A stretch of DNA of 64,000 nt from the NCBI RefSeq assembly GCF_030013205.1, contig NZ_CP122648.1; one strand, written 5' to 3'. The position numbers and the translations under genes were made by a program. The notes beneath the pieces were generated by a model. That model was not told the DNA's origin, did not search any database, and saw only the letters and a program-made list of their open reading frames with translations. Positions 3,715 to 43,720 of the stretch are shown in pieces; position 1 is the stretch's first letter; the number at the start of each line of letters is the position of its first letter. This DNA is from Escherichia coli. GTDB lineage: Bacteria; Pseudomonadota; Gammaproteobacteria; Enterobacterales; Enterobacteriaceae.

Positions 3715-3740
3715 CAGACGGGTAACGCGGGAGATTTTTC

Positions 3741-4859
3741 ATGCATAACCAGGCTCCAATTCAACGTAGAAAATCAACACGTATTTACGTTGGGAATGTG
3801 CCGATTGGCGATGGTGCTCCCATCGCCGTACAGTCCATGACCAATACGCGTACGACAGACGTCGAAGCAACGGTCAATCAAATCAAGGCGTTGGAACGTG
3901 TTGGCGCTGATATCGTCCGTGTCTCAGTACCGACGATGGACGCGGCAGAAGCGTTCAAACTCATCAAACAGCAGGTTAACGTGCCGCTGGTGGCTGACAT
4001 CCACTTCGACTATCGCATTGCGCTGAAAGTAGCGGAATACGGCGTCGATTGTCTGCGTATTAACCCTGGCAATATCGGTAATGAAGAGCGTATTCGCATG
4101 GTGGTTGACTGTGCGCGCGATAAAAACATTCCGATCCGTATTGGCGTTAACGCCGGATCGCTGGAAAAAGATCTGCAAGAAAAGTATGGCGAACCGACGC
4201 CGCAGGCGTTGCTGGAATCCGCCATGCGTCATGTTGATCATCTCGATCGCTTGAACTTCGAACAGTTCAAAGTCAGCGTGAAAGCGTCAGACGTCTTCCT
4301 CGCTGTTGAGTCTTATCGTTTGCTGGCAAAACAGATCGATCAGCCGCTGCATCTGGGGATCACCGAAGCGGGTGGTGCGCGCAGCGGGGCGGTTAAATCC
4401 GCCATTGGTTTAGGTCTGCTGCTGTCTGAAGGCATTGGCGACACGCTGCGCGTATCGCTGGCGGCCGATCCGGTTGAAGAGATCAAAGTCGGTTTCGATA
4501 TTTTGAAATCGCTGCGTATCCGTTCGCGCGGGATCAACTTCATCGCCTGTCCAACCTGTTCGCGTCAGGAGTTTGATGTTATCGGTACGGTTAACGCGCT
4601 GGAGCAACGCCTGGAAGATATCATCACTCCGATGGACGTTTCGATTATCGGCTGTGTGGTGAATGGCCCAGGTGAGGCGCTGGTTTCTACACTCGGCGTC
4701 ACCGGCGGTAACAAGAAAAGCGGCCTCTATGAAGATGGCGTGCGCAAAGACCGTCTGGACAACAACGATATGATCGACCAGCTGGAAGCGCGCATTCGTG
4801 CGAAAGCCAGTCAGCTGGACGAAGCGCGTCGAATTGACGTTCAGCAGGTTGAAAAATAA
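3741..4859 (+). CDS. ispG: 4-hydroxy-3-methylbut-2-enyl diphosphate synthase (IspG/GcpE)
   Basis: 372-aa ORF starting [18 protein letters not shown]; Fe-S cysteines CPTCSR and GCVVNGPGE near the C-terminus. Confidence 0.95.
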
Positions 4860-4969: not shown

Positions 4970-6244
4970 GTGGCAAAAAACATTCAAGCCATTCGCGGCA
5001 TGAACGATTACCTGCCTGGCGAAACGGCCATCTGGCAGCGCATTGAAGGCACACTGAAAAACGTGCTCGGCAGCTACGGTTACAGTGAAATCCGCTTGCC
5101 GATTGTAGAGCAGACCCCGCTATTCAAACGTGCGATTGGTGAAGTCACCGACGTGGTTGAAAAAGAGATGTACACCTTTGAGGATCGCAATGGCGACAGC
5201 CTGACTCTGCGCCCTGAAGGGACGGCGGGCTGTGTACGCGCCGGCATCGAGCATGGTCTTCTGTACAATCAGGAACAGCGTCTGTGGTATATCGGGCCGA
5301 TGTTCCGTCACGAGCGTCCGCAGAAAGGGCGTTATCGTCAGTTCCATCAGTTGGGCTGCGAAGTTTTCGGTCTGCAAGGTCCGGATATCGACGCTGAATT
5401 GATTATGCTCACCGCCCGCTGGTGGCGCGCGCTGGGTATCTCCGAGCACGTAACTCTTGAGCTGAACTCTATCGGTTCGCTGGAAGCACGCGCCAATTAC
5501 CGCGATGCGCTGGTGGTATTCCTTGAGCAGCATAAAGAAAAGCTGGACGAAGACTGCAAACGCCGCATGTACACTAACCCGCTGCGCGTGCTGGATTCAA
5601 AAAATCCGGAAGTGCAGGCGCTTCTCAACGATGCTCCGGCATTAGGCGATTATCTGGACGAGGAATCTCGTGAGCATTTTGCCGGTCTGTGCAAACTGCT
5701 TGAGAGCGCGGGGATCGCTTACACCGTAAACCAGCGTCTGGTGCGTGGTCTGGATTACTATAACCGTACCGTTTTCGAGTGGGTGACTAACAGCCTCGGC
5801 TCTCAGGGCACCGTGTGTGCAGGCGGTCGTTATGACGGTCTGGTGGAACAACTGGGCGGTCGTGCAACACCGGCTGTCGGTTTTGCGATGGGCCTCGAAC
5901 GTCTTGTATTGTTAGTTCAGGCCGTTAATCCGGAATTTAAGGCCGATCCTGTTGTCGATATATACCTGGTGGCTTCAGGTGCTGATACACAATCTGCGGC
6001 TATGGCATTAGCTGAGCGTCTGCGTGATGAATTACCGGGCGTGAAATTGATGACCAACCACGGCGGCGGCAACTTTAAGAAACAGTTTGCCCGTGCTGAT
6101 AAATGGGGTGCCCGCGTTGCTGTGGTGCTGGGTGAGTCTGAAGTGGCTAACGGCACAGCAGTAGTGAAGGATTTGCGCTCTGGTGAGCAAACGGCAGTTG
6201 CGCAGGATAGCGTAGCCGCGCATTTGCGCACGTTAATGGGTTAA
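4970..6244 (+). CDS. hisS: histidine--tRNA ligase
   Basis: 424-aa ORF (GTG start) with class-II aaRS motifs ([23 protein letters not shown]). Confidence 0.95.
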
Positions 6245-6261
6245 GGAAGGAGAAGGACAGC

Positions 6262-6882
6262 GTGGAAATTTACGAGAACGAAAACGACCAGGTGGAAGCG
6301 GTTAAACGCTTTTTTGCTGAAAATGGCAAAGCACTGGCTGTTGGGGTGATTTTGGGCGTTGGCGCACTAATTGGCTGGCGCTACTGGAACAGCCATCAGG
6401 TTGATTCTGCACGCTCCGCTTCTCTTGCCTATCAAAATGCGGTTACCGCAGTGAGCGAAGGCAAACCGGATAGCATCCCGGCGGCGGAAAAATTTGCTGC
6501 TGAAAATAAAAATACTTATGGTGCGCTGGCTTCTTTGGAACTTGCGCAGCAATTTGTTGACAAAAATGAACTAGAGAAAGCTGCCGCCCAGTTACAACAG
6601 GGGCTGGCAGACACGAGCGATGAAAATCTCAAAGCCGTGATAAATCTGCGTCTTGCTCGCGTTCAGGTTCAGCTCAAGCAGGCTGATGCCGCGCTGAAAA
6701 CCCTTGATACCATCAAAGGTGAAGGGTGGGCTGCCATTGTTGCCGACCTGCGTGGTGAAGCATTGCTGAGCAAAGGTGATAAGCAAGGTGCGCGTAGTGC
6801 ATGGGAAGCAGGCGTGAAAAGCGATGTTACCCCGGCACTGAGCGAAATGATGCAGATGAAAATTAATAATTTGTCCATCTGA
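6262..6882 (+). CDS. yfgM: membrane-anchored TPR-like protein YfgM
   Basis: 206-aa ORF with one N-terminal TM segment; conserved position between hisS and bamB. Confidence 0.85.
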   Translation: MEIYENENDQVEAVKRFFAENGKALAVGVILGVGALIGWRYWNSHQVDSARSASLAYQNAVTAVSEGKPDSIPAAEKFAAENKNTYGALASLELAQQFVDKNELEKAAAQLQQGLADTSDENLKAVINLRLARVQVQLKQADAALKTLDTIKGEGWAAIVADLRGEALLSKGDKQGARSAWEAGVKSDVTPALSEMMQMKINNLSI

Positions 6883-6892
6883 GAGGGACCCG

Positions 6893-8071
6893 ATGCAATT
6901 GCGTAAATTACTGCTGCCAGGACTGCTTTCCGTTACCCTTTTAAGCGGCTGTTCGCTGTTTAACAGCGAAGAAGATGTGGTAAAGATGTCCCCATTGCCA
7001 ACCGTTGAAAACCAGTTTACGCCGACCACGGCGTGGAGTACTTCCGTTGGTAGCGGCATTGGCAACTTCTATTCCAATCTTCATCCGGCACTGGCGGACA
7101 ACGTTGTCTATGCAGCGGACCGCGCTGGTTTAGTAAAAGCGCTGAATGCGGATGATGGCAAAGAAATCTGGTCTGTCAGCCTGGCCGAGAAAGATGGCTG
7201 GTTCTCTAAAGAGCCTGCATTACTTTCTGGCGGTGTGACCGTGTCTGGTGGGCATGTCTACATTGGCAGCGAAAAGGCGCAGGTTTACGCGCTGAATACC
7301 AGCGATGGTACTGTGGCATGGCAAACTAAAGTCGCGGGTGAAGCACTTTCGCGTCCGGTGGTCAGCGACGGTCTGGTGTTAATCCACACCAGTAACGGTC
7401 AGTTACAAGCGCTGAACGAAGCTGACGGCGCTGTCAAATGGACAGTTAACCTCGATATGCCTTCGCTCTCTTTGCGTGGCGAGTCTGCGCCGGCAACGGC
7501 TTTTGGTGCGGCCGTCGTGGGTGGCGATAATGGTCGCGTCAGCGCAGTGCTGATGGAACAGGGCCAGATGATTTGGCAGCAGCGTATTTCCCAGGCGACC
7601 GGTTCAACCGAAATTGACCGTCTGAGCGATGTTGACACGACTCCCGTCGTTGTTAACGGCGTTGTTTTCGCGCTGGCCTATAATGGTAACCTGACGGCGC
7701 TTGATCTGCGCAGCGGTCAGATTATGTGGAAACGCGAACTGGGTTCGGTGAATGATTTCATCGTCGACGGCAACCGCATCTATCTGGTCGATCAAAATGA
7801 CCGGGTGATGGCGTTGACCATTGATGGCGGCGTTACGCTGTGGACACAAAGCGATCTGCTGCATCGCCTGCTGACTTCTCCGGTGCTGTATAATGGCAAC
7901 CTGGTGGTAGGTGACAGCGAAGGTTATCTGCACTGGATTAACGTCGAAGATGGTCGTTTCGTTGCCCAGCAAAAAGTTGATAGTTCCGGTTTCCAGACTG
8001 AACCGGTTGCCGCTGACGGCAAACTGCTGATCCAGGCAAAAGACGGAACTGTGTACTCTATTACACGTTAA
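6893..8071 (+). CDS. bamB: outer membrane protein assembly factor BamB (lipoprotein, PQQ-like beta-propeller)
   Basis: 392-aa ORF with lipobox LLSGC and repeated propeller blades. Confidence 0.9.
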   Translation: MQLRKLLLPGLLSVTLLSGCSLFNSEEDVVKMSPLPTVENQFTPTTAWSTSVGSGIGNFYSNLHPALADNVVYAADRAGLVKALNADDGKEIWSVSLAEKDGWFSKEPALLSGGVTVSGGHVYIGSEKAQVYALNTSDGTVAWQTKVAGEALSRPVVSDGLVLIHTSNGQLQALNEADGAVKWTVNLDMPSLSLRGESAPATAFGAAVVGGDNGRVSAVLMEQGQMIWQQRISQATGSTEIDRLSDVDTTPVVVNGVVFALAYNGNLTALDLRSGQIMWKRELGSVNDFIVDGNRIYLVDQNDRVMALTIDGGVTLWTQSDLLHRLLTSPVLYNGNLVVGDSEGYLHWINVEDGRFVAQQKVDSSGFQTEPVAADGKLLIQAKDGTVYSITR

Positions 8072-26277: not shown

Positions 26278-26310
26278 AACCCTCTGTTTTTGCAGAGGGT
26301 TTTTGTTTTT
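26278..26310 (+). terminator. phage-supplied terminator replacing the native guaA terminator
   Basis: Stem ccctctg/cagaggg plus T-run; near-copy of the hairpin at 55403-55434. Confidence 0.55.
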
Positions 26311-26423: not shown

Positions 26424-27674
26424 GTGCTTACCGATACAAAATTAAAAAACCTCAAGCCGCAGGACAAACTGTACAAGGTCTCCGATCGTGACGGGCTGTA
26501 TGTAGCTGTGCTTACGTCAGGCACGGTCTCATTTCGTTATGACTACCGTATCAACGGTCGCCGCGAAACACTGGTAATCGGGCAGTATGGGCGTGACGGT
26601 ATCAGCCTGGCAGAAGCGCGGGAAGAACTGATTGCTGCAAAGAAGCTGCTTAAAGCAGGCCAGTCACCGGCTGCGGCTAAACGTGACGGTATCAAAAAGA
26701 TTCGTGGTGCCGAAACGTTTGCGGTACATACCGACAGTTATATGAAACACGTCATCCTGGCTGAAAGTACCCGCGCAATGAAGCAGGCAGTGATCGACCG
26801 TGACATACTTCCGGTTCTTGGCAACAAAATGATGGCTGAAATTACCACATCGATGGTTCGTGATTTGTGTGACCGGATTGTCGAACGCGGTGGCCGGGCA
26901 ACAGCAGTGCAGGCCAGGGAGATCATCAGCAGCGTATACCGTCACGCCAATGACCGTGGTCATGGTTTGTTTAATCCTGCGGCTGACATTAAGCCTTCGT
27001 CTATCGCCATATTTAAACCACGAGAGCGAACACTGACACCAGAAGAAATTGGCCTGTTCTTCCGCACGTTGGATGCCATTGGTGCTATGGGCACTATGAA
27101 AATGGCTTTAAAACTGGTGCTTATCACTATGGTTCGTAAGGGCGAATTCACCAATGCAACGTGGGATGAAATAGATTTTAAAAAATGGACATGGACAATT
27201 CCTTCAGACCGCATGAAGGGAAGCCGGGCGCATGTTATTTACCTGCCTAAACAGGCTCAGGATATATTGGTCGGGTTGCAGATGTGCGCTGGTGGAAGTG
27301 AATATCTGGTTCCTGGTCGTTACAATTTCCGGAAGCCATTATCTAATGCCGCGCTGAACTCTCTGATCGACAGAACGGTGAAAATAATAAATGAAGATGG
27401 TGAGCATATTCAGGATTTCACCGTACACGATATGCGCCGTACAGCCAGTACGTTGTTGCATGAGGCTGGTTATCCTTCAGACTGGATTGAAAAGGCTCTG
27501 GCACATGAGCAGAAAGGTGTGCGCGCCGTATATAACAAAGCGGAATACGCCAGACAGCGCGCCTACATGTTGCAGCAGTGGGCCGATATGATTGATTCCT
27601 GGATTAACGGGGAGCATACGGATCTGATTCCGTTCTCCCCGTCGAAGTTTGAGAAGTGGATGGCGGGGGAATAA
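26424..27674 (+). CDS. int: tyrosine-type site-specific integrase (P4-like, N-terminal DUF4102-type arm-binding domain)
   Basis: 416-aa ORF (GTG start) with LTDTKLKNLKP...YKVSDRDGLYVAV N-terminus and C-terminal catalytic region (HDMRRTASTLL...AYNK); sits next to attL. Confidence 0.9.
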   Translation: MLTDTKLKNLKPQDKLYKVSDRDGLYVAVLTSGTVSFRYDYRINGRRETLVIGQYGRDGISLAEAREELIAAKKLLKAGQSPAAAKRDGIKKIRGAETFAVHTDSYMKHVILAESTRAMKQAVIDRDILPVLGNKMMAEITTSMVRDLCDRIVERGGRATAVQAREIISSVYRHANDRGHGLFNPAADIKPSSIAIFKPRERTLTPEEIGLFFRTLDAIGAMGTMKMALKLVLITMVRKGEFTNATWDEIDFKKWTWTIPSDRMKGSRAHVIYLPKQAQDILVGLQMCAGGSEYLVPGRYNFRKPLSNAALNSLIDRTVKIINEDGEHIQDFTVHDMRRTASTLLHEAGYPSDWIEKALAHEQKGVRAVYNKAEYARQRAYMLQQWADMIDSWINGEHTDLIPFSPSKFEKWMAGE

Positions 27675-27677
27675 CGT

Positions 27678-27872
27678 TTAATTATTCTGCTGATTTTCTT
27701 CCATCTCGGCTTCTGCTGCCAGTGATTCAATTTTATCTGTGAATATTGCTGACAGTGTTGCAAATTCAGCATCAGTGACAGCGGGAATTGGAACAAACCT
27801 GATCCCGCTGTGTGCAAGCATGTTTGCAGTTTCAAGGCATTTCCTTAAATCTGATGGTGATGCCCTGTTCAT
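27678..27872 (-). CDS. small hypothetical phage protein, start overlaps the methyltransferase stop (ATGA)
   Basis: 64-aa ORF MNRASPSDLRK... read within the 27678..27992 track ORF; no recognisable domain. Confidence 0.3.
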   Translation of the reverse strand: MNRASPSDLRKCLETANMLAHSGIRFVPIPAVTDAEFATLSAIFTDKIESLAAEAEMEENQQNN

Positions 27873-28531
27873 GCTGCACGCTCCCGCCCCTGGTTGTCTG
27901 TTGGTGACAGCGGAGCATTGCTGAATGCATTTGTTAATCTGGCAATATCCAACGCGTATCCAGGGTGTAGTTGCACTGCCGGGTCTTCGCACTGATTACC
28001 CCAAACATCGAAACCATGAGACGACTGGCGGGCGAACAGTTCAATGCGAGAAACATCGCCTAACAATTGCACAAGTTTTTCACGAACGATATCTGGTTTT
28101 CTTGAATGCTCAAGCCGCGGTGCGGTAAATGACTGAACGATCCCTGCATTAATGCGCGTAGGTAGTTTTCCCTTTACTGCAAACAGGCAATCTTCACTAT
28201 TGGCGCGAGTCATGTGACCCATACCCATAACCAGTTTATCTGGTTGTCGACTACCACATTTTATCCACGTGAATCCCTTCATGGTCATCAGACGGAATCC
28301 CCAGGCCTCAACAACTTTTAGTGCTTCGAGTGGTTGTGTTGGCACCCACCACATGGCCAACAGACAGTTTTCATCGGCCAAATCCCACACAGGAAGGCGG
28401 CAGATATCCAGCACACTCATAACCGGATATTTAAAACCGGCACCGCGATTACCATCTGCGGCTTTGTCCCGGTATACCCAGGGTGGATCTGCATAGATTA
28501 GTGTGTATTTCTTAGTCATAAACCACCCCAC
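27869..28531 (-). CDS. MT-A70-family DNA N6-adenine methyltransferase (orphan)
   Basis: DPPW catalytic motif (LIYADPPWVY); no adjacent restriction endonuclease gene. Confidence 0.8.
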   Translation of the reverse strand: MGWFMTKKYTLIYADPPWVYRDKAADGNRGAGFKYPVMSVLDICRLPVWDLADENCLLAMWWVPTQPLEALKVVEAWGFRLMTMKGFTWIKCGSRQPDKLVMGMGHMTRANSEDCLFAVKGKLPTRINAGIVQSFTAPRLEHSRKPDIVREKLVQLLGDVSRIELFARQSSHGFDVWGNQCEDPAVQLHPGYALDIARLTNAFSNAPLSPTDNQGRERAA

Positions 28532-28811
28532 AACATCCTATGCCGCTATAGTCGCCACGGCGAAGGCCGTTACCTTTTGTGATACATTGGTCCCTGCGAA
28601 CCGCGATCCTTGCACGCTCAACATCACCAGAAGCAACATCCATACACTGAAGCCAAAGGTGAGCGGCAATGCGGAACTGCCCTTTTTTCTCTCTTTCAAT
28701 CGCGCGTTTTTCGATCTCTATCGCCGCAGGAGTAACGGCGACAATCTTTGACGGACTGCGCATTGAAACCTTGTTCATGTGATATTTTTCAAGTCGGCTT
28801 AACTTTCTCAC
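28512..28811 (-). CDS. hypothetical phage protein
   Basis: 99-aa ORF upstream of and co-oriented with the methyltransferase; no motif recognised. Confidence 0.35.
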   Translation of the reverse strand: MRKLSRLEKYHMNKVSMRSPSKIVAVTPAAIEIEKRAIEREKKGQFRIAAHLWLQCMDVASGDVERARIAVRRDQCITKGNGLRRGDYSGIGCCGVVYD

Positions 28812-28920
28812 TTAATCCAACCCTCTCTGAAAATTAATGCCAGCAGATAAAGCCATGCTGAAACAGAGGCCAGGAATAAGTACCATCCTGACCATTTGCT
28901 CCAGTGCCTTAGCAGCACAC

Positions 28921-29169
28921 TCATGCCGCGTTGCTCACGGGACGATATACACGTTGCTGAACAGGAGGTTTTTTACCCTGGAACTCTGCCGGGCTTGCTG
29001 CCTGACGTTCATCAAGCCAACGCTCAACTTCATCACGGTTCCATGCGCAGCGTTTATCGGTGATATACCAGCGTTTAGGAAATTCCCCTGCGCGCTCCAT
29101 ACGGTCGATAGTGCTCCATGACAGTGGAACCACCGCCAGGAGTTCCTTCTTACCTAATGCACCTTTCAT
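28921..29169 (-). CDS. AlpA/excisionase-like HTH protein
   Basis: 82-aa ORF with HTH-like segment (LSWSTIDRMERAGEFPKRWYI) typical of AlpA/Xis family; located between int and recombination genes. Confidence 0.6.
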   Translation of the reverse strand: MKGALGKKELLAVVPLSWSTIDRMERAGEFPKRWYITDKRCAWNRDEVERWLDERQAASPAEFQGKKPPVQQRVYRPVSNAA

Positions 29170-29218: not shown

Positions 29219-30160
29219 TTACATAGATGTTTCGTTTAATTCTTCCCGACGAACGCTGTAAACGTCGGTGGCTTTTGCCAGCAGTTCGTCATCATCTGAA
29301 AGTTTTTGTGCAATGTATTTGTAAGCCTTATCCAGTTCGGAGACAGTGCTGTAATTCATCGCTGCGCTGGTAAAGGCCATCAGCATTTCTTCTGGATCAC
29401 GGCTGTCCGATTTACGCGTTTGCTCATCAGGCTTTTTCGCTGGTTTAGCGTTGATCAGACTGTTCATTCCCGCAGCAGTGGTCGTTTGCGGAGTAATGTC
29501 TCGCTCAACGCGCGGTGCCGTTTCCTGTAATTCGTCTGGGGTGTAGACGCCCATGATTACGTCAGGACAGTGCAGGCGAGACCAGCGTTTTGTCGCAAGG
29601 TATGCGAGTTGTTGTTTCGGATCACTGGCCCAAAGTGTGGAGTTTCTTACCTGTGCTTGAGACAGCATTAACTCAAGCACTCGAGGTTGATCCTCGCCCT
29701 TCATGGTTGCCCATACGCGAACACCGCAGCCTTCTTCGTCTTTTAGAGTCCAGCCTGGTGCGATATATGGATTGCCGTTTTTGGATGTTTTCTCAACAAA
29801 CTTACCGATCACGCGTTCCCACGGCCCGAACCACTCGTAGTTGATGCGATCTTTTGTTGGCGACATCGTTGAGATAACTGCGTTTACTAATTGGGCTTCA
29901 TAACCTAGCGTGCCGTTCACAACATGGGTTTTCTGAGCCACGGCAAACGGGTTCATTCCCCACTGCGCAGCCTGCATTGCCACGGCCATGCAATCAGCTG
30001 GTTTCCCGGCGAGGTGCGCCGGTACCGTTACGCGGCTTTGCGCCATTACCTCGGCGAATTTCATCAGTTGGTTCAAGCCGTCTGGGCTGAAAATAGTTGC
30101 AGCAGTTCCAGCGATTGCTGTGTCTACTGGTGCGTTGATGTTTGCGATGTCGTTGCTCAT
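29219..30160 (-). CDS. phage single-strand annealing recombinase (RecT/Bet-like)
   Basis: Partner position immediately downstream of an exonuclease gene; start set at MSNDIAN so it abuts the exonuclease stop. Family assignment from general similarity, not a motif. Confidence 0.55.
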   Translation of the reverse strand: MSNDIANINAPVDTAIAGTAATIFSPDGLNQLMKFAEVMAQSRVTVPAHLAGKPADCMAVAMQAAQWGMNPFAVAQKTHVVNGTLGYEAQLVNAVISTMSPTKDRINYEWFGPWERVIGKFVEKTSKNGNPYIAPGWTLKDEEGCGVRVWATMKGEDQPRVLELMLSQAQVRNSTLWASDPKQQLAYLATKRWSRLHCPDVIMGVYTPDELQETAPRVERDITPQTTTAAGMNSLINAKPAKKPDEQTRKSDSRDPEEMLMAFTSAAMNYSTVSELDKAYKYIAQKLSDDDELLAKATDVYSVRREELNETSM

Positions 30161-30978
30161 ATGTACATATCCTGTTTGCGTGCCCACTCAGGGCGTTTAA
30201 TGATTTCCACACCGCCCCATTCATCATTGATGCGGCATTCGTGATAGGTATTCAGATCCCGGCGGAACAGAGCGTGCCCGGCATCGACATCCTGCGCATC
30301 CAGCTCGAACACGCGTACCGGATACCGACCACAATCAATGCTTTCGCTCACGGCAAGAAAGAAAAAACCATGCGGCTGACCAGTAACCCTCATTGCGCCT
30401 TCGCGGTACATTGCGTCCTGCACGTGGTAGCGGAATTCCTCGATGTGGCGTGCAAAACGGTCCATATCTGCAACCTTTTTCACGTCGACGATCACGTTGT
30501 GCTCGTTCAGCCATTTGTCTGGACGAATTCGGCACAACTCCCCCGTCTCTTCATCGTTCCAGTACATTGATGCTTCGCAGTAACCAGGTGCTTCCAGCAT
30601 CCAGCGTGCCGCCGGGTGAGCCATTGCGCTATCACGCATCAGCTCCAGTTTCCGCCACTGCTCGGCATCAAGTACCGTAATCCCCATATCCGCCACATCA
30701 CGAAGAAATTCCTCTTCGTCAGCTTTACCTTGTTTCGTCCGACGATCGAATTTCGGTGAAACAATGAAGCGTTTGTCGAACTCTCCAGGCTCCAGAAGCA
30801 GACAGTGCAATGCGGTTCCCATATCCAGTGCAGACTTTTTCTCTTCGTCTTCTGGTGCTGCCTGAACCCATTTAAGAAGCGCCGGATTCTTGGCAACCAT
30901 GTCCAGTTGCGACTTACTCACGCCGTCACCGGCGTGGTAGTCTTCGTTGCTGATGTCGAAATAAATTCCCGGTTTCAT
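30157..30978 (-). CDS. PD-(D/E)XK-type phage exonuclease (YqaJ/RecE-like)
   Basis: 273-aa ORF with acidic/lysine residues in an IVDVKK context consistent with PD-(D/E)XK nucleases; upstream partner of the annealing protein. Confidence 0.65.
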   Translation of the reverse strand: MKPGIYFDISNEDYHAGDGVSKSQLDMVAKNPALLKWVQAAPEDEEKKSALDMGTALHCLLLEPGEFDKRFIVSPKFDRRTKQGKADEEEFLRDVADMGITVLDAEQWRKLELMRDSAMAHPAARWMLEAPGYCEASMYWNDEETGELCRIRPDKWLNEHNVIVDVKKVADMDRFARHIEEFRYHVQDAMYREGAMRVTGQPHGFFFLAVSESIDCGRYPVRVFELDAQDVDAGHALFRRDLNTYHECRINDEWGGVEIIKRPEWARKQDMYI

Positions 30979-31289: not shown

Positions 31290-31582
31290 ATCTCGTTATC
31301 GTTGGCCACATCGCGAGCTTCTTTGCTGACGAAAGCCCACTTAATGCCTTCCTGTAAGGTGCGGAACTTCCAGCTCATGAATCCGCATGCAGTAACGCAG
31401 TACCAACCGTTGATGATTTTCCACTGCATAACTTGTTACCTCGGTCTGTTACCGTTGAGGTAATAATTATGCGTATATGGTTTGATGTCAATAGATATGA
31501 GTTAAAAAAATTACCCGTTAGGTAATCGAATAGGCAATAAAAAAGCCGCCATAAGGCGGCTTACTTACTGAAAAATATGGTT

Positions 31583-32167
31583 TTATTGTTTGTTTTTTTC
31601 GTTCTGGTTGATGACAAATTCAATGTAACTTTCGATCTTTGCTTTCTCGGTTTCGGGTAACAATGCGTAGCGCGAGCGATCATAGTTGATGGTCGCAGGG
31701 TCGTGCGGGTGAATCAGTAATTCATAGCCGTGACGCCCGAATGCGGATGCAACATTCTCCAGGGTGGAAATGGAAACGCTGACCTCATTGTTTAACAGGC
31801 GGCTGATTGTCACCTGGGCTACGCCGGATGCGCGGTGAAGTTTTCCCTGTGTTGAAAGGTCGCGGCTTTCGCTCATCCAGCGTTCCAGGTTGTGAGCCGC
31901 CAGCTGGCCAATGTCGCTTGGGCCGACAGGCTGAAAACCTTCCTGAGAAAGCGAGCGATCGATATCAAGCCAGTTACGGGGTTTATTGGCGGCAGCTTCA
32001 ATTTTTCGTGCAACCTGGTCGCCGATAACCTTCTTGCCAAGAGCCCAGCGGTTTACCAGATTTGCCTGAGTTCCAAGTTTTTCAGCCATCCGCGTCTGAA
32101 CACCATTGAATTCACGGTCGATCAAGTCGTTGAGATTTTGCCTGCGGACGTCCTGGATACTTTTCAT
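31583..32167 (-). CDS. prophage repressor with two HTH domains and no peptidase domain
   Basis: N-terminal XRE-like HTH (TRMAEKLGTQANLVNRWALGKK) and second HTH-like segment (GVAQVTISRLLNNE); divergent from a cro-like gene with operator-like palindromes between them. Confidence 0.65.
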   Translation of the reverse strand: MKSIQDVRRQNLNDLIDREFNGVQTRMAEKLGTQANLVNRWALGKKVIGDQVARKIEAAANKPRNWLDIDRSLSQEGFQPVGPSDIGQLAAHNLERWMSESRDLSTQGKLHRASGVAQVTISRLLNNEVSVSISTLENVASAFGRHGYELLIHPHDPATINYDRSRYALLPETEKAKIESYIEFVINQNEKNKQ

Positions 32168-36407: not shown

Positions 36408-36718
36408 TGGTAGGAGACATAATTTTTAAAGGCCTTTGGGCGTGTAAACCGGAAACATCAGGGAATAACACCAACAAATGGTATTACGGAAATACTGATA
36501 CAACTTTTGAGCCATTAAACCCTTTACCTGACTACTGCAATAATCCATCGGATGCATGGCCTATTATTGTTGATAATAAAATCAGTCTAACCTGCCACCA
36601 CTCTCGCGGTGAGTGGTCAGCAGTTTTTAATGCCGACAACATTTGCTTTCATGCGAATAATCCACTCCGAGCCGCCATGATTGTATTTCTCATGATGCAG
36701 GAAAATCAGAATGGCTAA
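36314..36718 (+). CDS. hypothetical phage protein carrying a 17-aa N-terminal duplication
   Basis: ORF begins MMDYSQLSDFEINRRGE-MMDYSQLSDFEINRM; start overlaps the upstream stop (ATGA). Confidence 0.45.
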   Translation: MMDYSQLSDFEINRRGEMMDYSQLSDFEINRMVGDIIFKGLWACKPETSGNNTNKWYYGNTDTTFEPLNPLPDYCNNPSDAWPIIVDNKISLTCHHSRGEWSAVFNADNICFHANNPLRAAMIVFLMMQENQNG

Positions 36719-37115
36719 ATCAGCAGCAGAGCGCAAAGCCGCTCAGAGAGCCAGACAAGCTGCATCTGGCGTGCGTAAGCTGGAAATTGTGCTTGATGCT
36801 CAGGAAATTGAAATGCTGGAGCGTAACTGTGCCACGCGTCGCCCCGGGCGTGCGCCTTACGAATTTGGTGAGTATATAGCGTTACTGATCCGCCAGGATG
36901 ATGCACGCGTGCGCGGGCGTATAAAATCGATCAGCAGAAAACGTTGCGGTAAGTGCGGCGAGATAGTTCCTGTGAATTCATGCCCGTGTACCGTACCCAT
37001 TACAAATGGGACAACGGACTTGCTCTGCGTGACTGGCGTTATGTTGTTCGCATTGCAAACATCGATGTCAGCAATCTTTCAGAACCTTCCTCTGCCGCAA
37101 ATATTGCGAAGTTGA
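36711..37115 (+). CDS. hypothetical basic protein; possible gene remnant at a deletion junction
   Basis: 134-aa ORF whose 3' part overlaps the next ORF in another frame. Confidence 0.3.
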   Translation: MAKSAAERKAAQRARQAASGVRKLEIVLDAQEIEMLERNCATRRPGRAPYEFGEYIALLIRQDDARVRGRIKSISRKRCGKCGEIVPVNSCPCTVPITNGTTDLLCVTGVMLFALQTSMSAIFQNLPLPQILRS

Positions 37116-37333
37116 TGGTTAAAGCACTGCATCGCATTCCAAATCGTGGCATGGGTCGCCCGGTGTTCTACATGAACCGCACTGTAGGCCAGGCTCTTGA
37201 TCTGCAATCTCTGGAGAAAACATCTCTGGCGATCAGCGTAAAAGAGACAGAAGGCGAGTGGTGGACTTCATTCCGTGGTGTACCAATCCGTGAAACTGAT
37301 GCGCTTCTGGAAACAGAAGCCCGCGTGGTGTAA
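36953..37333 (+). pseudogene. possible 3' remnant of a head/structural gene
   Basis: 126-aa ORF with no proper 5' context and an overlapping upstream ORF; no terminase or portal gene precedes it. Confidence 0.3.
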
Positions 37334-37384
37334 CGCCTGTTATTAACCTGTGGGTCGTAACAGACCCACTAATGGAGAAAGAAG

Positions 37385-37753
37385 ATGATCACCGACAAAC
37401 TGTTGATGTTCTCCGAAGCTCAGGCGGTTACGAATACCGCGGCTTCTACTGACGTAATCGATCTCGGTCCAATTGACGGAAAACGTCGTGATATCGGCGT
37501 GGGTTACCCGCTTGAGTTTTGGGCGCTGGTTAACACAGCCGCCGCGGCAAGCGGTGATGCAACTGTAAACATCCAGTTGCAGGCGAGTGAGAATAACAGC
37601 TCATGGACCACTATTTATGATAGTGGCGCACTGGCAAAGACCGCCCTGACAGCAGGTAAACGAGTTGTTTCTGCAAAGGTGCCTGCCGGTGTTCAGCGAT
37701 ATCTGCGTGTTAACTACTCCGTCGCAACTGGCCCACCGGGACAATTACGTTAA
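37385..37753 (+). CDS. hypothetical virion-associated protein
   Basis: 122-aa ORF with RBS-like gagaaagaag upstream. Confidence 0.4.
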   Translation: MITDKLLMFSEAQAVTNTAASTDVIDLGPIDGKRRDIGVGYPLEFWALVNTAAAASGDATVNIQLQASENNSSWTTIYDSGALAKTALTAGKRVVSAKVPAGVQRYLRVNYSVATGPPGQLR

Positions 37754-37794
37754 CGGCAAGCGCCTCTATTTTTGGCGCGGAGCAGGTAGGCAAA

Positions 37795-38391
37795 TTGTTC
37801 TATCTGGAACAGCCTGCAGTGGATTCTGTGCCGGTAACCAGCAATACCGCTGTAGTGGTTCGTGCCAACAGGAACGTCCCGCCATCCCTCAGGAATACGG
37901 CCACCACGAACTGGCAGATGGCGCGCCGGACATTTGGAGGCCTGTCTCATCTTGAAGGCCAGACCGTAAACATTCTCTCTGATGCGAGCGTGGAACCACA
38001 GAAAGTGGTTTCCGGAGGTGCCGTCACGCTGGAATCTCCGGGGGCTGTAGTGCACATCGGCCTGCCAATAACTGCTGAATTCGAAACACTGGATATCAAC
38101 ATTAACGGACAGGAAACGCTGCTGGACAAAAAACAGGTGATCCCCTCCGTTACTCTGGTTGTGAATGCCAGTCGCGGCATCTGGGCGACTACGCCTGGCG
38201 GTAAATGGTACGAATATCCACAGCGTGAATTCGAGTTCTACGATGATCCTGTTGATGATGCTACCGGAAAAGTAGAAGTGAAACTGGACAGTAACTGGGG
38301 CAAAAACGGACGTGTAAAAATCCGTCAGCTTGATCCGTTGCCGCTGTCTGTTCTTGCCGTTATTCCTCGCCTTACTGTTGGGGGATTTTGA
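37795..38391 (+). CDS. hypothetical structural protein
   Basis: 198-aa ORF in the structural cluster. Confidence 0.4.
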   Translation: MFYLEQPAVDSVPVTSNTAVVVRANRNVPPSLRNTATTNWQMARRTFGGLSHLEGQTVNILSDASVEPQKVVSGGAVTLESPGAVVHIGLPITAEFETLDININGQETLLDKKQVIPSVTLVVNASRGIWATTPGGKWYEYPQREFEFYDDPVDDATGKVEVKLDSNWGKNGRVKIRQLDPLPLSVLAVIPRLTVGGF

Positions 38392-38855
38392 TGATCGACG
38401 TTAAAATTATTCCCGCTACCGAAGAGCATCTTCAGATGATTTTGCCGGATGTTCGTCAGGCTGATATTGACGAACTGTATGCGGTATCGCTGATGACTAC
38501 CGAAGATGCGCTGCGTGTTGGTCTGCGCACTGCGACTATGGCCTGGTCAGGGTTCGCGAACGGAGAACTGGTAACCATGTTTGGTGTATCTCCGGCGTCA
38601 ATGATCGGTGGCAATGGTACGCCTTGGCTGGTAGGAACCAGCCGTATTGAAAAATATCAGAAGACATTTCTTCGCCACTGCCGACCTGTATTGCAGCAGA
38701 TGCTGGCAGTTTATCCGCGCCTGGAAAACTACGTCGACGAGCGAAACCATGTTGCCAAAGCATGGCTGCACTGGCTTGGATTCAGGCTTGAAGAAGCCGC
38801 GCCTTATGGTGCTCTTGGTCTTAATTTCCACAGATTTCACATGGAGAGAAAATAA
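38388..38855 (+). CDS. hypothetical virion protein
   Basis: 155-aa ORF, stop/start overlap with neighbours. Confidence 0.4.
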   Translation: MMIDVKIIPATEEHLQMILPDVRQADIDELYAVSLMTTEDALRVGLRTATMAWSGFANGELVTMFGVSPASMIGGNGTPWLVGTSRIEKYQKTFLRHCRPVLQQMLAVYPRLENYVDERNHVAKAWLHWLGFRLEEAAPYGALGLNFHRFHMERK

Positions 38856-39400
38856 TGTGCGATCCGGTTATTGCTGGTGGCGCAATGCTCGCCATGAGTG
38901 GCATTCAGGCATACACCCAGTACCAACAGGGAAAGTATGCCTCGAAGGTTGCAGAAGCGAACGCAGATATAGCCACAGCTCAGGCAAATGATGCAATAAA
39001 CAGAGGTAACGCTGAAGCTGAGCAACGGCGCAGAGAGACGCGACAGCGGCTTGGTACACAGGCGGCGACAATGGGGGCGACCGGCGCTGATTTATCTACC
39101 GGTAACGCGCTGGATATATTTGGTGACACTGCTCAGTTTGGCGCTCTTGATTCGCTGACGACGGTGAATAACGCGCAACGCGAGGCTTACGGTTATCAGG
39201 TTCAGGCTGCCAACTATAAAGCAGAAGCCAGTTCAGCCCGTAAACAGGGGAATGTGGGAGCAGCAACAACATTGCTCACTGCGCCTCTGAAGGCATACGG
39301 TGCGTACCAGATGTTTGGTGGGACGTGGAGTCCGTTTACTCAAAGCACCCCCGCGCCAATCAGGGCAGCAGCAGGAACCAGATTACCCGGAGGATTATAA
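38855..39400 (+). CDS. internal virion/ejection protein (small)
   Basis: 181-aa Ala/Gln-rich protein directly upstream of the SLT-domain protein, as in podovirus ejection-protein sets. Confidence 0.45.
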   Translation: MCDPVIAGGAMLAMSGIQAYTQYQQGKYASKVAEANADIATAQANDAINRGNAEAEQRRRETRQRLGTQAATMGATGADLSTGNALDIFGDTAQFGALDSLTTVNNAQREAYGYQVQAANYKAEASSARKQGNVGAATTLLTAPLKAYGAYQMFGGTWSPFTQSTPAPIRAAAGTRLPGGL

Positions 39401-42022: not shown

Positions 42023-43720
42023 ATGCCAATTTACACAGATGATCCGGGACAGGGAATTAACCAGCCAATTGGCAACGCGCCAGCAGGGCTTGGCGAATCG
42101 CTGCTTTCTTCCCTTAAGCAGGGATTTGAAGAGGGGCCGGTCATGTCCGGCTACCGTTTTGCGCAGGCCGACTCGCTGGCGAATGACCCAAACTCTACAG
42201 TTATCAGTAAGCAGGAAGCGGATGAGCTCCTGAAGCAGTACGGCGTAAAGAGCATAAACGTGCCAGATTCTGGCGTTACGCAGGCTTTTCTCGATCATGT
42301 TATTGCCGAACGCAAAGATTCTCTGGCACGCCAGCAGATCGCGATGTCGGCACCGAGCGGGTGGGTAGCCACGCCGCTTAATTTCGCAGCCAGCCTAGCT
42401 GGTTCAATGGCAGATCCTGGTAACGTGGCGCTGGCGCTGGTTCCGTTCGCTGGAGAAGCAAAGGCGGCTTCTGTGCTTGGCCGATTTGGCGAGCGATTTG
42501 TTGCTGGTGCACGCATGGGGGCAGCGCAGGCGTTGGTGACCGTGCCGCTTACCGGGCTGGCAGCGGCGGCGGAAGGTGACGACTTCACCTATAGCAACGC
42601 GTTGGAAAGTACTTTCTTTAACACGATGGCTGGCGGTCTAATGCATGCCGGCGGCGGCCTTATCGCCGATATCGTGCGACCGCGTCGCGTTCCCGATGCT
42701 GCAACGGGAGAGTCCCCGGCGTTTTCTGGCGATGCGCAGCCAACCCCGGTGATAACGCCTGACAACATTCCGGCGGGCGTGAATATCCCTGAGGTTGGCG
42801 CTAACGCAGATCTGGCGGCGGCCATTTCCAGTGAAGCGGAGAGCTACGCATACAGCCGGGCTTATGACGACGTGGTTCCTGACTATATGGCGCGCCAGCA
42901 GGAGTTACAGAGCGGGCAGATCGGTAACGTTGCCGACCTGCGTGCCGAGCTTGCGGCTAATCAACGTCATGCTGACTCGCTTGATGCGACGCTGCAGCAG
43001 CGCACCAAAAAGTATCAGGGGCAGCGGATGAAGTTTAAGGATGCGCGCTCTAGGGCACTGAAAGAGATTCAGGCCGAGAAAGACGCCATCGCTGCACGCA
43101 ATCAGGAGATCAACACATCGCTGGAGCAGAACGCGACAGCAGAGCAGGCGCGCTGGCGCCAGTCTCAGATTTCCCGCGGCGAGATCCCCGACGACCTGAA
43201 AGTCACCATTTCCGAGCGTGCGCAGCAGATCCTGGACGGCATGCAGATGTCTCCGGTCGCTGGCGCAGTTCGCACTGCCGCAAGCGCCATCAGGGATGCT
43301 GACTGGAGCGTGAACCAGCAGGCGTATCGCGCTGCGCTGGCACACATGATGGAAGGACGTATCCCAGATGTTGAGCCCTTCTATGAACTGCACAAACCGG
43401 CACTGCGTGAACGCGCCATCCATCGCATACAGAACCCGGCACGGCAGGTTGATGAAACGGCTCGCCCAGCAAGCGAAACAGCCGATCGGGTTTATCAAGA
43501 AACGCAAAAGGCAGATCATGAAATTACCGCTGCCGCTGCAGACCTTGATAACGAGCTCAACCTGAGTAACGCACTGCTTGACGATATCGCTGTCGATAAC
43601 CCTGATCTTGCGACCACGTTGCGCCAGAAACTCAATGATATTCGTGCCGACGCCAGCGACAATAGCATGAGCAACGCTTTCCGGGCATTTGCCGCCTGTA
43701 TGATTAACCGGGGGATGTGA
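42023..43720 (+). CDS. internal virion/ejection protein
   Basis: 565-aa ORF, Ala-rich, translationally coupled within the core-protein operon. Confidence 0.45.
   Translation: MPIYTDDPGQGINQPIGNAPAGLGESLLSSLKQGFEEGPVMSGYRFAQADSLANDPNSTVISKQEADELLKQYGVKSINVPDSGVTQAFLDHVIAERKDSLARQQIAMSAPSGWVATPLNFAASLAGSMADPGNVALALVPFAGEAKAASVLGRFGERFVAGARMGAAQALVTVPLTGLAAAAEGDDFTYSNALESTFFNTMAGGLMHAGGGLIADIVRPRRVPDAATGESPAFSGDAQPTPVITPDNIPAGVNIPEVGANADLAAAISSEAESYAYSRAYDDVVPDYMARQQELQSGQIGNVADLRAELAANQRHADSLDATLQQRTKKYQGQRMKFKDARSRALKEIQAEKDAIAARNQEINTSLEQNATAEQARWRQSQISRGEIPDDLKVTISERAQQILDGMQMSPVAGAVRTAASAIRDADWSVNQQAYRAALAHMMEGRIPDVEPFYELHKPALRERAIHRIQNPARQVDETARPASETADRVYQETQKADHEITAAAADLDNELNLSNALLDDIAVDNPDLATTLRQKLNDIRADASDNSMSNAFRAFAACMINRGM

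What the first reader, a model, noticed from the sequence alone, without database searches (positions are those of the whole stretch)
27869..28531. Orphan MT-A70-type adenine methyltransferase beside the integrase
DPPW-motif methyltransferase with no cognate endonuclease. Such phage orphan methylases can protect phage DNA from host restriction or alter host gene expression in the lysogen.
Basis: partly seen in the sequence, partly recalled or inferred. Interest (0 to 1): 0.4.

Follow-up and report, generated by a model that had tools for sequence, protein, structure and literature searches.

The report
Orphan prophage MT-A70 adenine methyltransferase
This is an intact and already annotated phage methyltransferase gene with no restriction enzyme partner, sitting in a decayed phiV10-like prophage next to guaA; it is ordinary as a gene, but its 83%-identical relative in Shiga-toxin phages is reported to methylate GATC in DNA and, with a helper protein that is missing here, 16S ribosomal RNA.

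Summary
The minus-strand ORF 27869-28531 encodes an MT-A70 family (DPPW) methyltransferase. The annotated start is the ATG at 28519, giving 216 aa, identical to RefSeq WP_000163456.1.

The gene lies in the leftward early operon of a phiV10/TL-2011b-like (Uetakevirus) prophage integrated at the guaA terminator. A 195-bp DUF1382 gene separates it from the convergent integrase. No restriction endonuclease was found in the prophage, so it is an orphan.

About 10% of complete E. coli genomes carry this module. The gene is under strong purifying selection (dN/dS 0.085 against a Salmonella orthologue).

Residues 1-187 are 83% identical to M.EcoPA8orf6770P of Stx2a phage phiPA8, which Gong et al. describe as highly similar to M.EcoGV. 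Published work reports GATC DNA methylation for M.EcoGV when over-expressed. It also reports 16S rRNA methylation by the phiPA8 enzyme in complex with PNB-2, which raises spontaneous prophage induction.

Here PNB-2 is absent and the C-terminal tail is unrelated. A Dam-like DNA activity is my leading guess and remains unproven.

In this strain (ETEC4079) the prophage has lost terminase, portal and half of the capsid gene, so protection of virion DNA cannot operate. This is known biology of low novelty.

The parts
27869..28519 (-).
   Evidence: RefSeq WP_000163456.1. dN/dS is 0.085 against the Salmonella orthologue.
28478..28489 (-). Codons for the catalytic motif IV, DPPW (residues 11-14)
   Evidence: Read from the sequence. 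D11, P12 and W14 are at least 90% conserved in a 65-sequence family alignment.
28226..28264 (-). Residues 86-98, the most variable internal loop of the family. It is nearly identical to phiPA8 gp5 but different in the Salmonella orthologue. I infer that it is a candidate substrate or interface loop.
   Evidence: Entropy and gap profile; pairwise alignments; lower pLDDT in this block.
27872..27958 (-). C-terminal tail, residues 188-216, specific to the phiV10-type enzymes. It is unrelated to the tail of the phiPA8/M.EcoGV type.
   Evidence: pLDDT is below 50 for residues 198-216. dN/dS of the tail is 0.19.
27678..27872 (-). DUF1382 gene, translationally coupled to the methyltransferase by an ATGA overlap. 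It is 49% identical to phiPA8 gp4, which follows the methyltransferase there too.
28512..28811 (-). PerC-like small regulator gene whose stop overlaps the methyltransferase start by 8 nt. The true start is probably the GTG at 28811 (99 aa), not the RefSeq ATG at 28763.
   Evidence: phrog_868, positions 1-99 of 99; N-terminus conserved with the Salmonella 99-aa homologue; GTG aligned with ATG.
28860..28893 (-). Hairpin (8 bp, 10-nt loop) followed by a U-rich tract, between the xis-like gene and perC. It is a possible weak terminator or regulatory element and is conserved in the Salmonella prophage.
   Evidence: It was not called by the strict terminator scan.
28921..29169 (-). AlpA/excisionase-like HTH gene
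29219..30160 (-). RecT recombinase gene
30157..30978 (-). PD-(D/E)XK (DUF3799) recombination exonuclease. It is the partner of RecT, not a restriction enzyme.
31463..31491 (-). PL-like sigma-70 promoter candidate (TTGACA-17-AATTAT) at the head of the leftward early operon
   Evidence: 10 of 12 positions match. This is a consensus match only.
31583..32167 (-). cI-like HTH repressor gene, followed by a terminator-like hairpin at 31543-31562
26424..27674 (+). Tyrosine integrase, convergent with the early-left operon
26278..26304 (.). attL region at the guaA terminator hairpin. The matching attR copy is at about 55409-55436.
   Evidence: terminator; shared core CAGAGGGTTTTT and flanking hairpin.
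36990..36995 (.). Deletion junction that removes both terminase subunits, portal, protease and the N-terminal part of the capsid gene. Further deletions lie near 37736 and 37836.
   Evidence: comparison with the intact YDC107 prophage; capsid fragment; junction unique to ETEC4079; RefSeq pseudogenes.

Best explanation
The gene encodes an intact, stand-alone MT-A70 (class beta, DPPW) SAM-dependent N6-adenine methyltransferase. It is an accessory gene of a phiV10-like temperate podovirus prophage integrated at guaA in porcine E. coli ETEC4079.

Shown here:
- It is the penultimate gene of the leftward early operon: PL-like promoter, exo, recT, xis-like gene, perC-like gene, methyltransferase, DUF1382.
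- It is translationally coupled to both neighbouring genes.
- It has no restriction endonuclease partner.
- It consists of the bare catalytic core plus a disordered 30-residue tail.
- It belongs to the same subfamily as M.EcoPA8orf6770P of Stx2a phages (83% identity over residues 1-187, same variable loop, same downstream DUF1382 gene). Gong et al. describe M.EcoGV as highly similar to that enzyme.

Inferred: its intrinsic activity is most likely Dam-like m6A methylation of GATC in DNA, as reported for M.EcoGV expressed alone in a methylation-free host. I expect it to be made mainly when the early-left operon is derepressed, so that replicating phage DNA is methylated faster than host Dam can manage. 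This would give protection against GATC-cutting, methylation-sensitive restriction, or serve Dam-dependent phage functions.

The rRNA-directing subunit PNB-2 used by the Stx-phage enzyme is absent and the tail thought to bind it is replaced. I therefore do not expect the 16S rRNA activity here unless another partner exists. In this particular strain the prophage cannot make virions, so the gene is at present a passenger.
For: - **Family and fold:**
- **Operon position and coupling:**
- **Orphan status:**. Homologues in five other phage contexts also have no adjacent restriction enzyme.
- **Purifying selection:**
- **Relation to the characterised enzyme:**. The paper's mutagenesis primers map onto the phiPA8 gene that I compared.
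- **C227-11 prophage:** the MT-A70 gene is the only intact orphan methyltransferase annotated in the 50-kb stretch of the C227-11 Stx2a prophage that I read.
- **Published GATC assignment:** for M.EcoGV and its REBASE relatives, see PMC10810198 and PMC6602927 Table 3.
- **PNB-2 absent:** the best tblastn match in the window has E=0.9.
- **Defective prophage:**
Against: - Purified M.EcoPA8orf6770P alone showed almost no activity on dam- DNA in vitro, and its authors argue that the GATC result is an over-expression artefact (PMC10810198).
- I could not read Fang et al. 2012 directly. The identification of M.EcoGV with the MT-A70 protein rests on Gong et al.'s statement that the two are 'highly similar' and on my check of the C227-11 prophage.
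- All solved MT-A70 enzymes work as heteromers.
- The window enzyme's tail differs, so its partner and specificity could differ.
- Expression timing is inferred from gene order and one consensus promoter match. A hairpin upstream of perC could define a separate unit that is expressed in lysogens, as in phiPA8.
Confidence: 0.5

Rival explanations
1. It is an RNA (16S rRNA) methyltransferase catalytic subunit, like M.EcoPA8orf6770P. It would work with a different, unidentified specificity subunit, possibly the co-transcribed PerC-like protein or a host factor recruited by the phiV10-type tail. It would then modulate translation and spontaneous prophage induction in the lysogen.
For: - Residues 1-187 are 83% identical to the phiPA8 enzyme, whose holoenzyme prefers 16S rRNA and 30S subunits and raises spontaneous induction (PMC10810198).
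- The nearest structures are METTL3 and MTA1, which need partner subunits.
- The C-terminal tail is hypervariable across the family but conserved within the phiV10 type.
- The layout parallels phiPA8: hairpin, small-protein gene, methyltransferase, DUF1382.
- A PerC-like 99-aa gene lies upstream in all four phiV10-type contexts that I examined.
Against: - There is no PNB-2 homologue in the window.
- The tail implicated in PNB-2 binding is replaced.
- PerC-like and PNB-2 share no detectable similarity.
- The gene immediately upstream of the methyltransferase varies: PerC-like, DUF1317 or PDDEXK_5.
- The four contexts are one syntenic lineage, so the co-occurrence may simply be shared ancestry.
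- The published rRNA result rests on a SAM-consumption assay and the modified base was not mapped.
Confidence: 0.25
2. It is a DNA adenine methyltransferase with a different short or degenerate specificity, or none at all as for M.EcoGII. It would act as a broad anti-restriction device during lytic growth.
For: - The protein is a bare catalytic core of about 180 residues with no recognisable target-recognition domain.
- Prophage methyltransferases are often promiscuous and silent in lysogens (PMC5778455; PMC4659465).
- Homologues sit in early lytic operons (nin region or early-left) of many temperate phages.
Against: The closest relative with a reported in vivo readout gives GATC, not non-specific methylation. 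The variable loop is almost identical to that relative's. M.EcoGI and M.EcoGII belong to a different family: 349 aa, DPPY motif.
Confidence: 0.15
3. It is a functionless relic in this genome: either the enzyme is inactive, or it is never expressed from a decaying prophage.
For: The prophage has lost its packaging and head genes. Some related phages carry disrupted copies, for example phiv142-3, which is annotated as a 279-nt fragment, and phiPA2, which has an IS629 insertion (PMC10810198).
Against: The coding sequence is identical to that of intact prophages such as YDC107. All conserved motifs are present. dN/dS is 0.085. The deletion junction is unique to one genome out of 5426 and so is probably recent.
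Confidence: 0.08
4. It is the modification half of a restriction-modification system whose endonuclease was overlooked.
For: PADLOC classifies the family under Type II methyltransferase models. One distant syntenic relative in Enterobacter has a weak PDDEXK_5 hit immediately upstream.
Against: Both flanking genes here are small (PerC-like and DUF1382). The only nuclease in the operon is the RecT-partner exonuclease. No restriction-enzyme domain appears among the annotated or Pfam-scanned prophage ORFs. Neighbouring genes differ from phage to phage.
Confidence: 0.02

Closest known systems
M.EcoPA8orf6770P (gp5 of Stx2a phage phiPA8, KP682374; Gong, Chakraborty and Koudelka, NAR 2023, PMC10810198), which its authors call highly similar to M.EcoGV of E. 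coli O104:H4 C227-11
   Same: - It is an MT-A70 enzyme with the DPPW motif.
- Identity is 82.9% over residues 1-187, and the variable loop at 86-98 is nearly identical.
- It is an orphan gene in the early-left accessory region near int.
- It overlaps the upstream gene and is followed by a DUF1382 gene.
   Different: - The C-terminal tails after residue 187 are unrelated.
- The upstream gene is PerC-like rather than PNB-2, and no PNB-2 exists anywhere in the window.
- The host phage is a Uetakevirus podovirus at guaA rather than a Sepvirinae Stx phage at wrbA.
- There are no experimental data for the phiV10-type enzyme.
Eukaryotic MT-A70 writers: METTL3 (with METTL14) and ciliate MTA1/AMT1 (with MTA9, p1 and p2)
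   Same: They share the fold and the catalytic and SAM-binding motifs. Sequence E-values are 3.5e-13 (MTA1) and about 5e-6 (METTL3). Foldseek E-values are about 1e-13 to 1e-14, with rmsd 2.4-3.0 A to MTA1.
   Different: The phage protein is only the catalytic core. It has no paralogous dead partner in the prophage and no CCCH or other accessory domains. Sequence identity is only 20-26%.
Classical phage and host Dam methyltransferases (E. coli Dam, M.EcoVT2Dam, T4 Dam)
   Same: They may share the GATC m6A product and the role of an orphan phage-borne enzyme (PMC6602927).
   Different: They belong to unrelated families (PF02086 and PF05869, alpha class). The window protein matches neither of them.
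M.EcoGI and M.EcoGII, non-specific prophage adenine methyltransferases
   Same: They are orphan, prophage-encoded class beta enzymes that are silent in lysogens (PMC5778455).
   Different: They are 349 aa long with a DPPY motif, a central target-recognition domain and a C-terminal FxGxG motif. The window protein is 216 aa, has DPPW and matches only MT-A70 in Pfam.

Membership tests
MT-A70 family (Pfam PF05063; class beta N6-adenine methyltransferases) | Profile match above the curated cut-off over the whole domain | tested here: met
   79.6 bits against a cut-off of 23.9, profile positions 1-172 of 172, E=3.4e-22.
MT-A70 family (Pfam PF05063; class beta N6-adenine methyltransferases) | Catalytic motif IV (DPPW) near the N-terminus, with SAM-binding elements towards the C-terminus (beta order, IV before I) | tested here: met
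   DPPW is at residues 11-14. The HSRKP, IELFAR and WGNQ blocks at residues 138-176 are conserved in the family and align with MTA1.
MT-A70 family (Pfam PF05063; class beta N6-adenine methyltransferases) | MT-A70 fold | tested here: met
   AlphaFold2 model with mean pLDDT 86.9. The top Foldseek hits are METTL3 and Tetrahymena MTA1, all at probability 1.00.
MT-A70 family (Pfam PF05063; class beta N6-adenine methyltransferases) | SAM-dependent N6-adenine methyl transfer | not testable with these tools
   This needs an enzyme assay or a methylome of an expression strain.
M.EcoGV / M.EcoPA8orf6770P subfamily of Stx-phage MT-A70 enzymes | High identity of the catalytic core to the characterised enzyme | tested here: met
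   82.9% identity over residues 1-187. The identity of the phiPA8 gene was confirmed with the paper's primers.
M.EcoGV / M.EcoPA8orf6770P subfamily of Stx-phage MT-A70 enzymes | The full-length C-terminal region (last 27 aa or so), proposed to be needed for the PNB-2 holoenzyme | tested here: not met
   The tails after residue 187 show no similarity.
M.EcoGV / M.EcoPA8orf6770P subfamily of Stx-phage MT-A70 enzymes | Adjoining upstream gene for PNB-2, the rRNA-directing subunit | tested here: not met
   The upstream gene is PerC-like. tblastn of PNB-2 against the whole window gives a best E of 0.9.
M.EcoGV / M.EcoPA8orf6770P subfamily of Stx-phage MT-A70 enzymes | GATC m6A in DNA in vivo, and/or 16S rRNA methylation | not testable with these tools
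   Only literature on the relatives is available.
Type II restriction-modification system | A cognate restriction endonuclease gene adjacent to or linked with the methyltransferase | tested here: not met
   The flanking genes are PerC-like and DUF1382. No endonuclease other than the RecT-partner exonuclease was found in the prophage.
M.EcoGI / M.EcoGII non-specific methyltransferases | About 349 aa with a DPPY motif, a central target-recognition domain and a C-terminal FxGxG motif, as described in PMC5778455 | tested here: not met
   The protein is 216 aa with DPPW and matches only MT-A70 in Pfam. The family description comes from PMC5778455.
ParB-fused phage methyltransferases | An N-terminal ParB_N domain fused to the methyltransferase domain | tested here: not met
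   The MT-A70 domain starts at residue 5 of the protein. ParB_N fusions are seen only in distant relatives.

The most novel reading that the evidence does not exclude
The phiV10-type enzyme carries a swapped, lineage-conserved C-terminal tail and sits in about 10% of complete E. coli genomes. It could be a second, distinct phage MT-A70 holoenzyme. In that reading the tail recruits a different specificity subunit (the co-transcribed PerC-like protein is the obvious candidate), which directs it to an RNA or DNA target other than that of the Stx-phage enzyme. Prophage-encoded m6A writing on host RNA would then be a widespread, modular way of tuning lysogen physiology or induction.
Probability: 0.15. 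Interest if true: 0.55.

Novelty: already known. Interest (0 to 1): 0.2.

Why it matters
On its own this is a routinely annotated accessory gene. [quoted passage not shown]

It matters mainly as context. Its Stx-phage relative has been tied to spontaneous prophage induction and to STEC virulence. The substrate of that subfamily is disputed between GATC DNA and 16S rRNA. The phiV10-type variant lacks PNB-2 and has a different tail, so it is a natural comparison case for settling what the catalytic core does on its own.

For this strain, the practical message is that the prophage is decayed. A lysogen methylome would probably show nothing new whatever the enzyme does.

Tried and rejected
**Candidate identities rejected**
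- M.EcoGIX turned out to be a plasmid-borne, DPPY, single-strand-specific enzyme.
- M.EcoGI and M.EcoGII are 349-aa DPPY enzymes.
- M.EcoMIV of ST131 is a D12-class enzyme, PF02086.
- NCBIfam gave no hit for the methyltransferase.

**Regulatory signals**
- The strict promoter and terminator scan found no internal promoter or terminator between the PL-like site and the gene.
- Folding of the xis-perC spacer was not significantly stable overall (z = -0.93), although it contains one conserved hairpin.

**Literature**
- Searches for phiV10 plus methyltransferase, MT-A70 plus prophage or orphan or SMRT, and 'methylase IME4' plus phage found no study of this exact protein.
- Fang et al. 2012 is not held in the library, so the M.EcoGV data are second-hand.

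**Search for a conserved partner gene**
- The gene immediately upstream (PerC-like, DUF1317, PDDEXK_5, NinB) and the gene downstream (DUF1382, NinI phosphatase, 59-aa, 124-aa, NinD) vary between phages. No obligatory adjacent partner emerges.

**Not attempted**
- I did not predict a complex structure. The tool models single chains, and Gong et al. report that AlphaFold failed on the known complex.

Full report
**1. The observation**

The minus strand carries an ORF from 28531 (GTG) to 27869. Its product matches Pfam MT-A70 (PF05063) across the entire 172-position profile, with E=3.4e-22 and 79.6 bits against a cut-off of 23.9. It also matches PHROG 'DNA methyltransferase' families (phrog_359, E=6.6e-121) and a PADLOC Type II methyltransferase model (E=2.2e-77).

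The DPPW motif is encoded at 28478-28489. RefSeq places the start at the ATG at 28519, giving 216 aa (WP_000163456.1). This agrees with the N-termini of homologues. The feature is therefore real and the coordinates are right apart from the start codon.

**2. Where it sits**

The window is from E. coli ETEC4079, a porcine ETEC strain (NZ_CP122643.1). This was identified through a deletion junction found in only one of 5426 complete genomes.

Downstream of guaB-guaA lies a prophage of the phiV10/TL-2011b type (genus Uetakevirus, epsilon15-like podoviruses). The 1.3-kb segment around the gene is 98-100% identical to phiV10, TL-2011b, ZX5 and others. It occurs in 544 of 5426 complete E. coli genomes.

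The att core overlaps the guaA terminator hairpin at about 26278-26304, and a matching copy lies at about 55409-55436.

The leftward gene order on the minus strand is:
- cI-like repressor (31583-32167) and a terminator-like hairpin
- a PL-like promoter match (31491-31463)
- two small ORFs
- a PD-(D/E)XK exonuclease
- RecT
- an AlpA/Xis-like HTH gene
- a PerC-like gene
- the methyltransferase
- DUF1382

The integrase is convergent.

The methyltransferase start overlaps the PerC-like stop by 8 nt. Its stop overlaps the DUF1382 start as ATGA. It is therefore separated from the integrase by the 195-bp DUF1382 gene.

**3. Orphan status**

No restriction endonuclease is annotated in the intact reference prophage of strain YDC107 or in ETEC4079. 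Pfam scans of the unannotated ORFs found none. The only nuclease in the operon is the RecT-partner exonuclease.

Homologues of 68-84% identity sit in other temperate-phage contexts. These include the position between NinB and NinD in P22/lambda-like prophages, the region between the replication genes and Q, and a position after a lysis cassette. None has a restriction enzyme beside it.

**4. The protein**

The family is very large: 12,122 cluster representatives at E<=1e-3 and 6,443 at E<=1e-10. Most members are stand-alone proteins of 185-260 aa, and some distant ones carry ParB_N fusions.

In a 65-sequence alignment, D11, P12, W14, H138, S139, K141, P142, E160, F162, R164 and G174 are invariant or nearly so. 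The most variable internal segment is residues 91-96, and everything after about residue 180 is hypervariable.

The AlphaFold2 model is confident, with mean pLDDT 86.9. Residues 198-216 fall below 50. Its best PDB matches are the METTL3 catalytic domain and Tetrahymena MTA1 (Foldseek E about 1e-13 to 1e-14; rmsd 2.4-3.0 A to MTA1). This agrees with the sequence search (7f4r at E=3.5e-13; METTL3 at about 5e-6). There is no extra target-recognition domain.

A Salmonella orthologue in a syntenic guaA prophage is 81% identical. Comparison with it gives dN/dS = 0.085 overall and 0.19 for the tail. The gene is therefore maintained by selection.

**5. The closest characterised relative**

A protein search of the phage collection showed 82-83% identical homologues in more than 110 Stx2a-converting phages. 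A literature search then found Gong, Chakraborty and Koudelka (NAR 2023, PMC10810198).

That paper studies M.EcoPA8orf6770P (gp5) of Stx2a phage phiPA8, an MT-A70/DPPW enzyme, and reports the following:
- Disruption of the gene by IS629 in phiPA2 lowers spontaneous induction and amoeba killing.
- The wild-type gene complements this defect, but the APPA mutant does not.
- The purified enzyme alone is nearly inactive on DNA (including dam- DNA) and on RNA.
- In a 1:1 complex with PNB-2 (gp6, the upstream gene), it prefers 16S rRNA and 30S subunits.
- The 'highly similar' M.EcoGV of O104:H4 methylates GATC in vivo when over-produced.

PMC6602927 likewise lists M.EcoGV homologues as GATC enzymes. 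It notes that they cannot be told apart from Dam in lysogen methylomes.

I confirmed which phiPA8 gene is meant by mapping the paper's mutagenesis primers to KP682374 positions 2801-2840, inside the gene at 2228-2854. I also checked the 50-kb stretch of the C227-11 Stx2a prophage that I read. There the MT-A70 gene is the only intact orphan methyltransferase. The others are the PstI-like restriction-modification pair and a 114-nt methylase remnant.

**6. Comparison with the window gene**

The window protein is 82.9% identical to phiPA8 gp5 over residues 1-187. The variable loop is almost the same: IKCGSRQPDKLVM here against NKCGKRQTDKLVM in phiPA8. After residue 187 the tails are unrelated.

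The downstream DUF1382 gene is shared (49% identity to phiPA8 gp4). The upstream gene is PerC-like rather than PNB-2, and no PNB-2 homologue exists anywhere in the 64-kb window (best tblastn E=0.9).

The phiV10-type tail (…NAPLSPTDNQxRERAA) is conserved in E. coli, Salmonella and Enterobacter relatives. In those lineages the genes immediately adjacent to the methyltransferase vary. A 99-aa PerC-like gene is present upstream in the same operon in every case. These loci are all syntenic relatives, so this co-occurrence is weak evidence for a functional link.

**7. State of the prophage in this strain**

Compared with the intact YDC107 prophage, the window lacks about 7 kb. The missing region holds both terminase subunits, portal, protease and the N-terminal part of the capsid gene, with the junction at 36990/36995. 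Two smaller deletions lie near 37736 and 37836.

Pfam sees only the C-terminal 124 residues of the capsid protein. RefSeq flags the remnants as pseudogenes. The first junction is unique to ETEC4079. The prophage therefore cannot package DNA. Any role in protecting virion DNA is moot in this strain, although the methyltransferase coding sequence is identical to that of intact prophages.

**8. Interpretation**

Four things are shown: the gene is an intact, selected, orphan MT-A70 methyltransferase; it lies in the early-left accessory operon; it belongs to the M.EcoGV/M.EcoPA8orf6770P subfamily by its catalytic core; and it lacks the PNB-2 subunit and the matching tail.

The rest is inferred. I rate a Dam-like GATC DNA activity exerted during phage development as most likely, at about 0.5 including the identity claims. 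My reasons are that the only in vivo readout reported for the core expressed alone was GATC, and that the putative substrate loop is conserved.

The main rival, at about 0.25, is an RNA-directed holoenzyme with a different partner. Smaller probabilities go to another or no DNA specificity (0.15), a dead relic (0.08) and a hidden restriction-modification system (0.02).

It is therefore not a valid refutation.

**9. Novelty**

The gene, its family assignment and its orphan status are already in public annotation, and a close relative has been studied experimentally. What this analysis adds is that the phiV10-type enzyme is a tail-swapped, PNB-2-less variant of that subfamily, and that the prophage carrying it here is defective. 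Interest is low.

Noticed in passing
window 36711-39400 (junctions at 36990/36995, about 37736 and about 37836): The phiV10-like prophage is defective in this strain. Both terminase subunits, portal, protease and the N-terminal part of the capsid gene are deleted, and further small deletions truncate the Bbp16 gene and the following gene. The first junction occurs in only one of 5426 complete genomes (ETEC4079).
   Followed up: yes
window 28763-28811 (minus strand): The PerC-like gene probably starts at the GTG at 28811 (99 aa), not at the RefSeq ATG at 28763 (83 aa). The extra N-terminal residues are conserved in the Salmonella 99-aa homologue, and the start codons align (GTG against ATG).
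   Followed up: partly
window 28812-28920 (minus strand); hairpin 28893-28860: The spacer between the xis-like gene and perC is 90% identical between the E. coli and Salmonella prophages, although synonymous sites of the neighbouring methyltransferase gene are saturated. It contains an 8-bp hairpin with a U-rich tail. In phiPA8, a terminator sits at the equivalent position upstream of PNB-2.
   Followed up: partly
window 27674-27678: The integrase (plus strand) and the early-left operon (minus strand) converge with only 3 nt between their stop codons and no terminator match. Read-through from the PL-like promoter would therefore be antisense to int.
   Followed up: no
L020 (phage PA8, KP682374) positions 1634-1655: The reverse cloning primer printed in Gong et al. 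2023 for the p-M.EcoPA8F1 construct anneals at the 3' end of gp3 (DUF1627-like, ending ...INELSE), not at the end of the methyltransferase gene. That construct therefore also carried gp4 (DUF1382) and gp3. This bears on which proteins could have been co-expressed with the methyltransferase.
   Followed up: partly
window about 56421-57118: An IS1 element is inserted just outside the prophage. It truncates the yfgH-like glycine-zipper gene (RefSeq pseudogene) and accounts for the roughly 770-bp insertion relative to strain YDC107.
   Followed up: partly
window 42023-43720 (plus strand): RefSeq names this 565-aa ORF 'exodeoxyribonuclease VII large subunit'. It lies among the virion-core genes (T7 gp14-like and SLT-domain proteins), and it has no Pfam hit. 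The name is probably an annotation error.
   Followed up: partly
L023 (Enterobacter hormaechei) positions 3498-4025: In a syntenic guaA prophage, a 175-aa protein with a weak PDDEXK_5 hit overlaps the start of the MT-A70 gene. This is the only context I saw that hints at a nuclease partner for this family.
   Followed up: no
L011-L013 (Klebsiella prophages) about 5656-7415: An AAA_15/AAA_21 ATPase gene and an RloB-like gene lie on the opposite strand directly after the MT-A70 gene. This looks like a two-gene ATPase-plus-RloB-like defence cassette inserted beside the methyltransferase.
   Followed up: no
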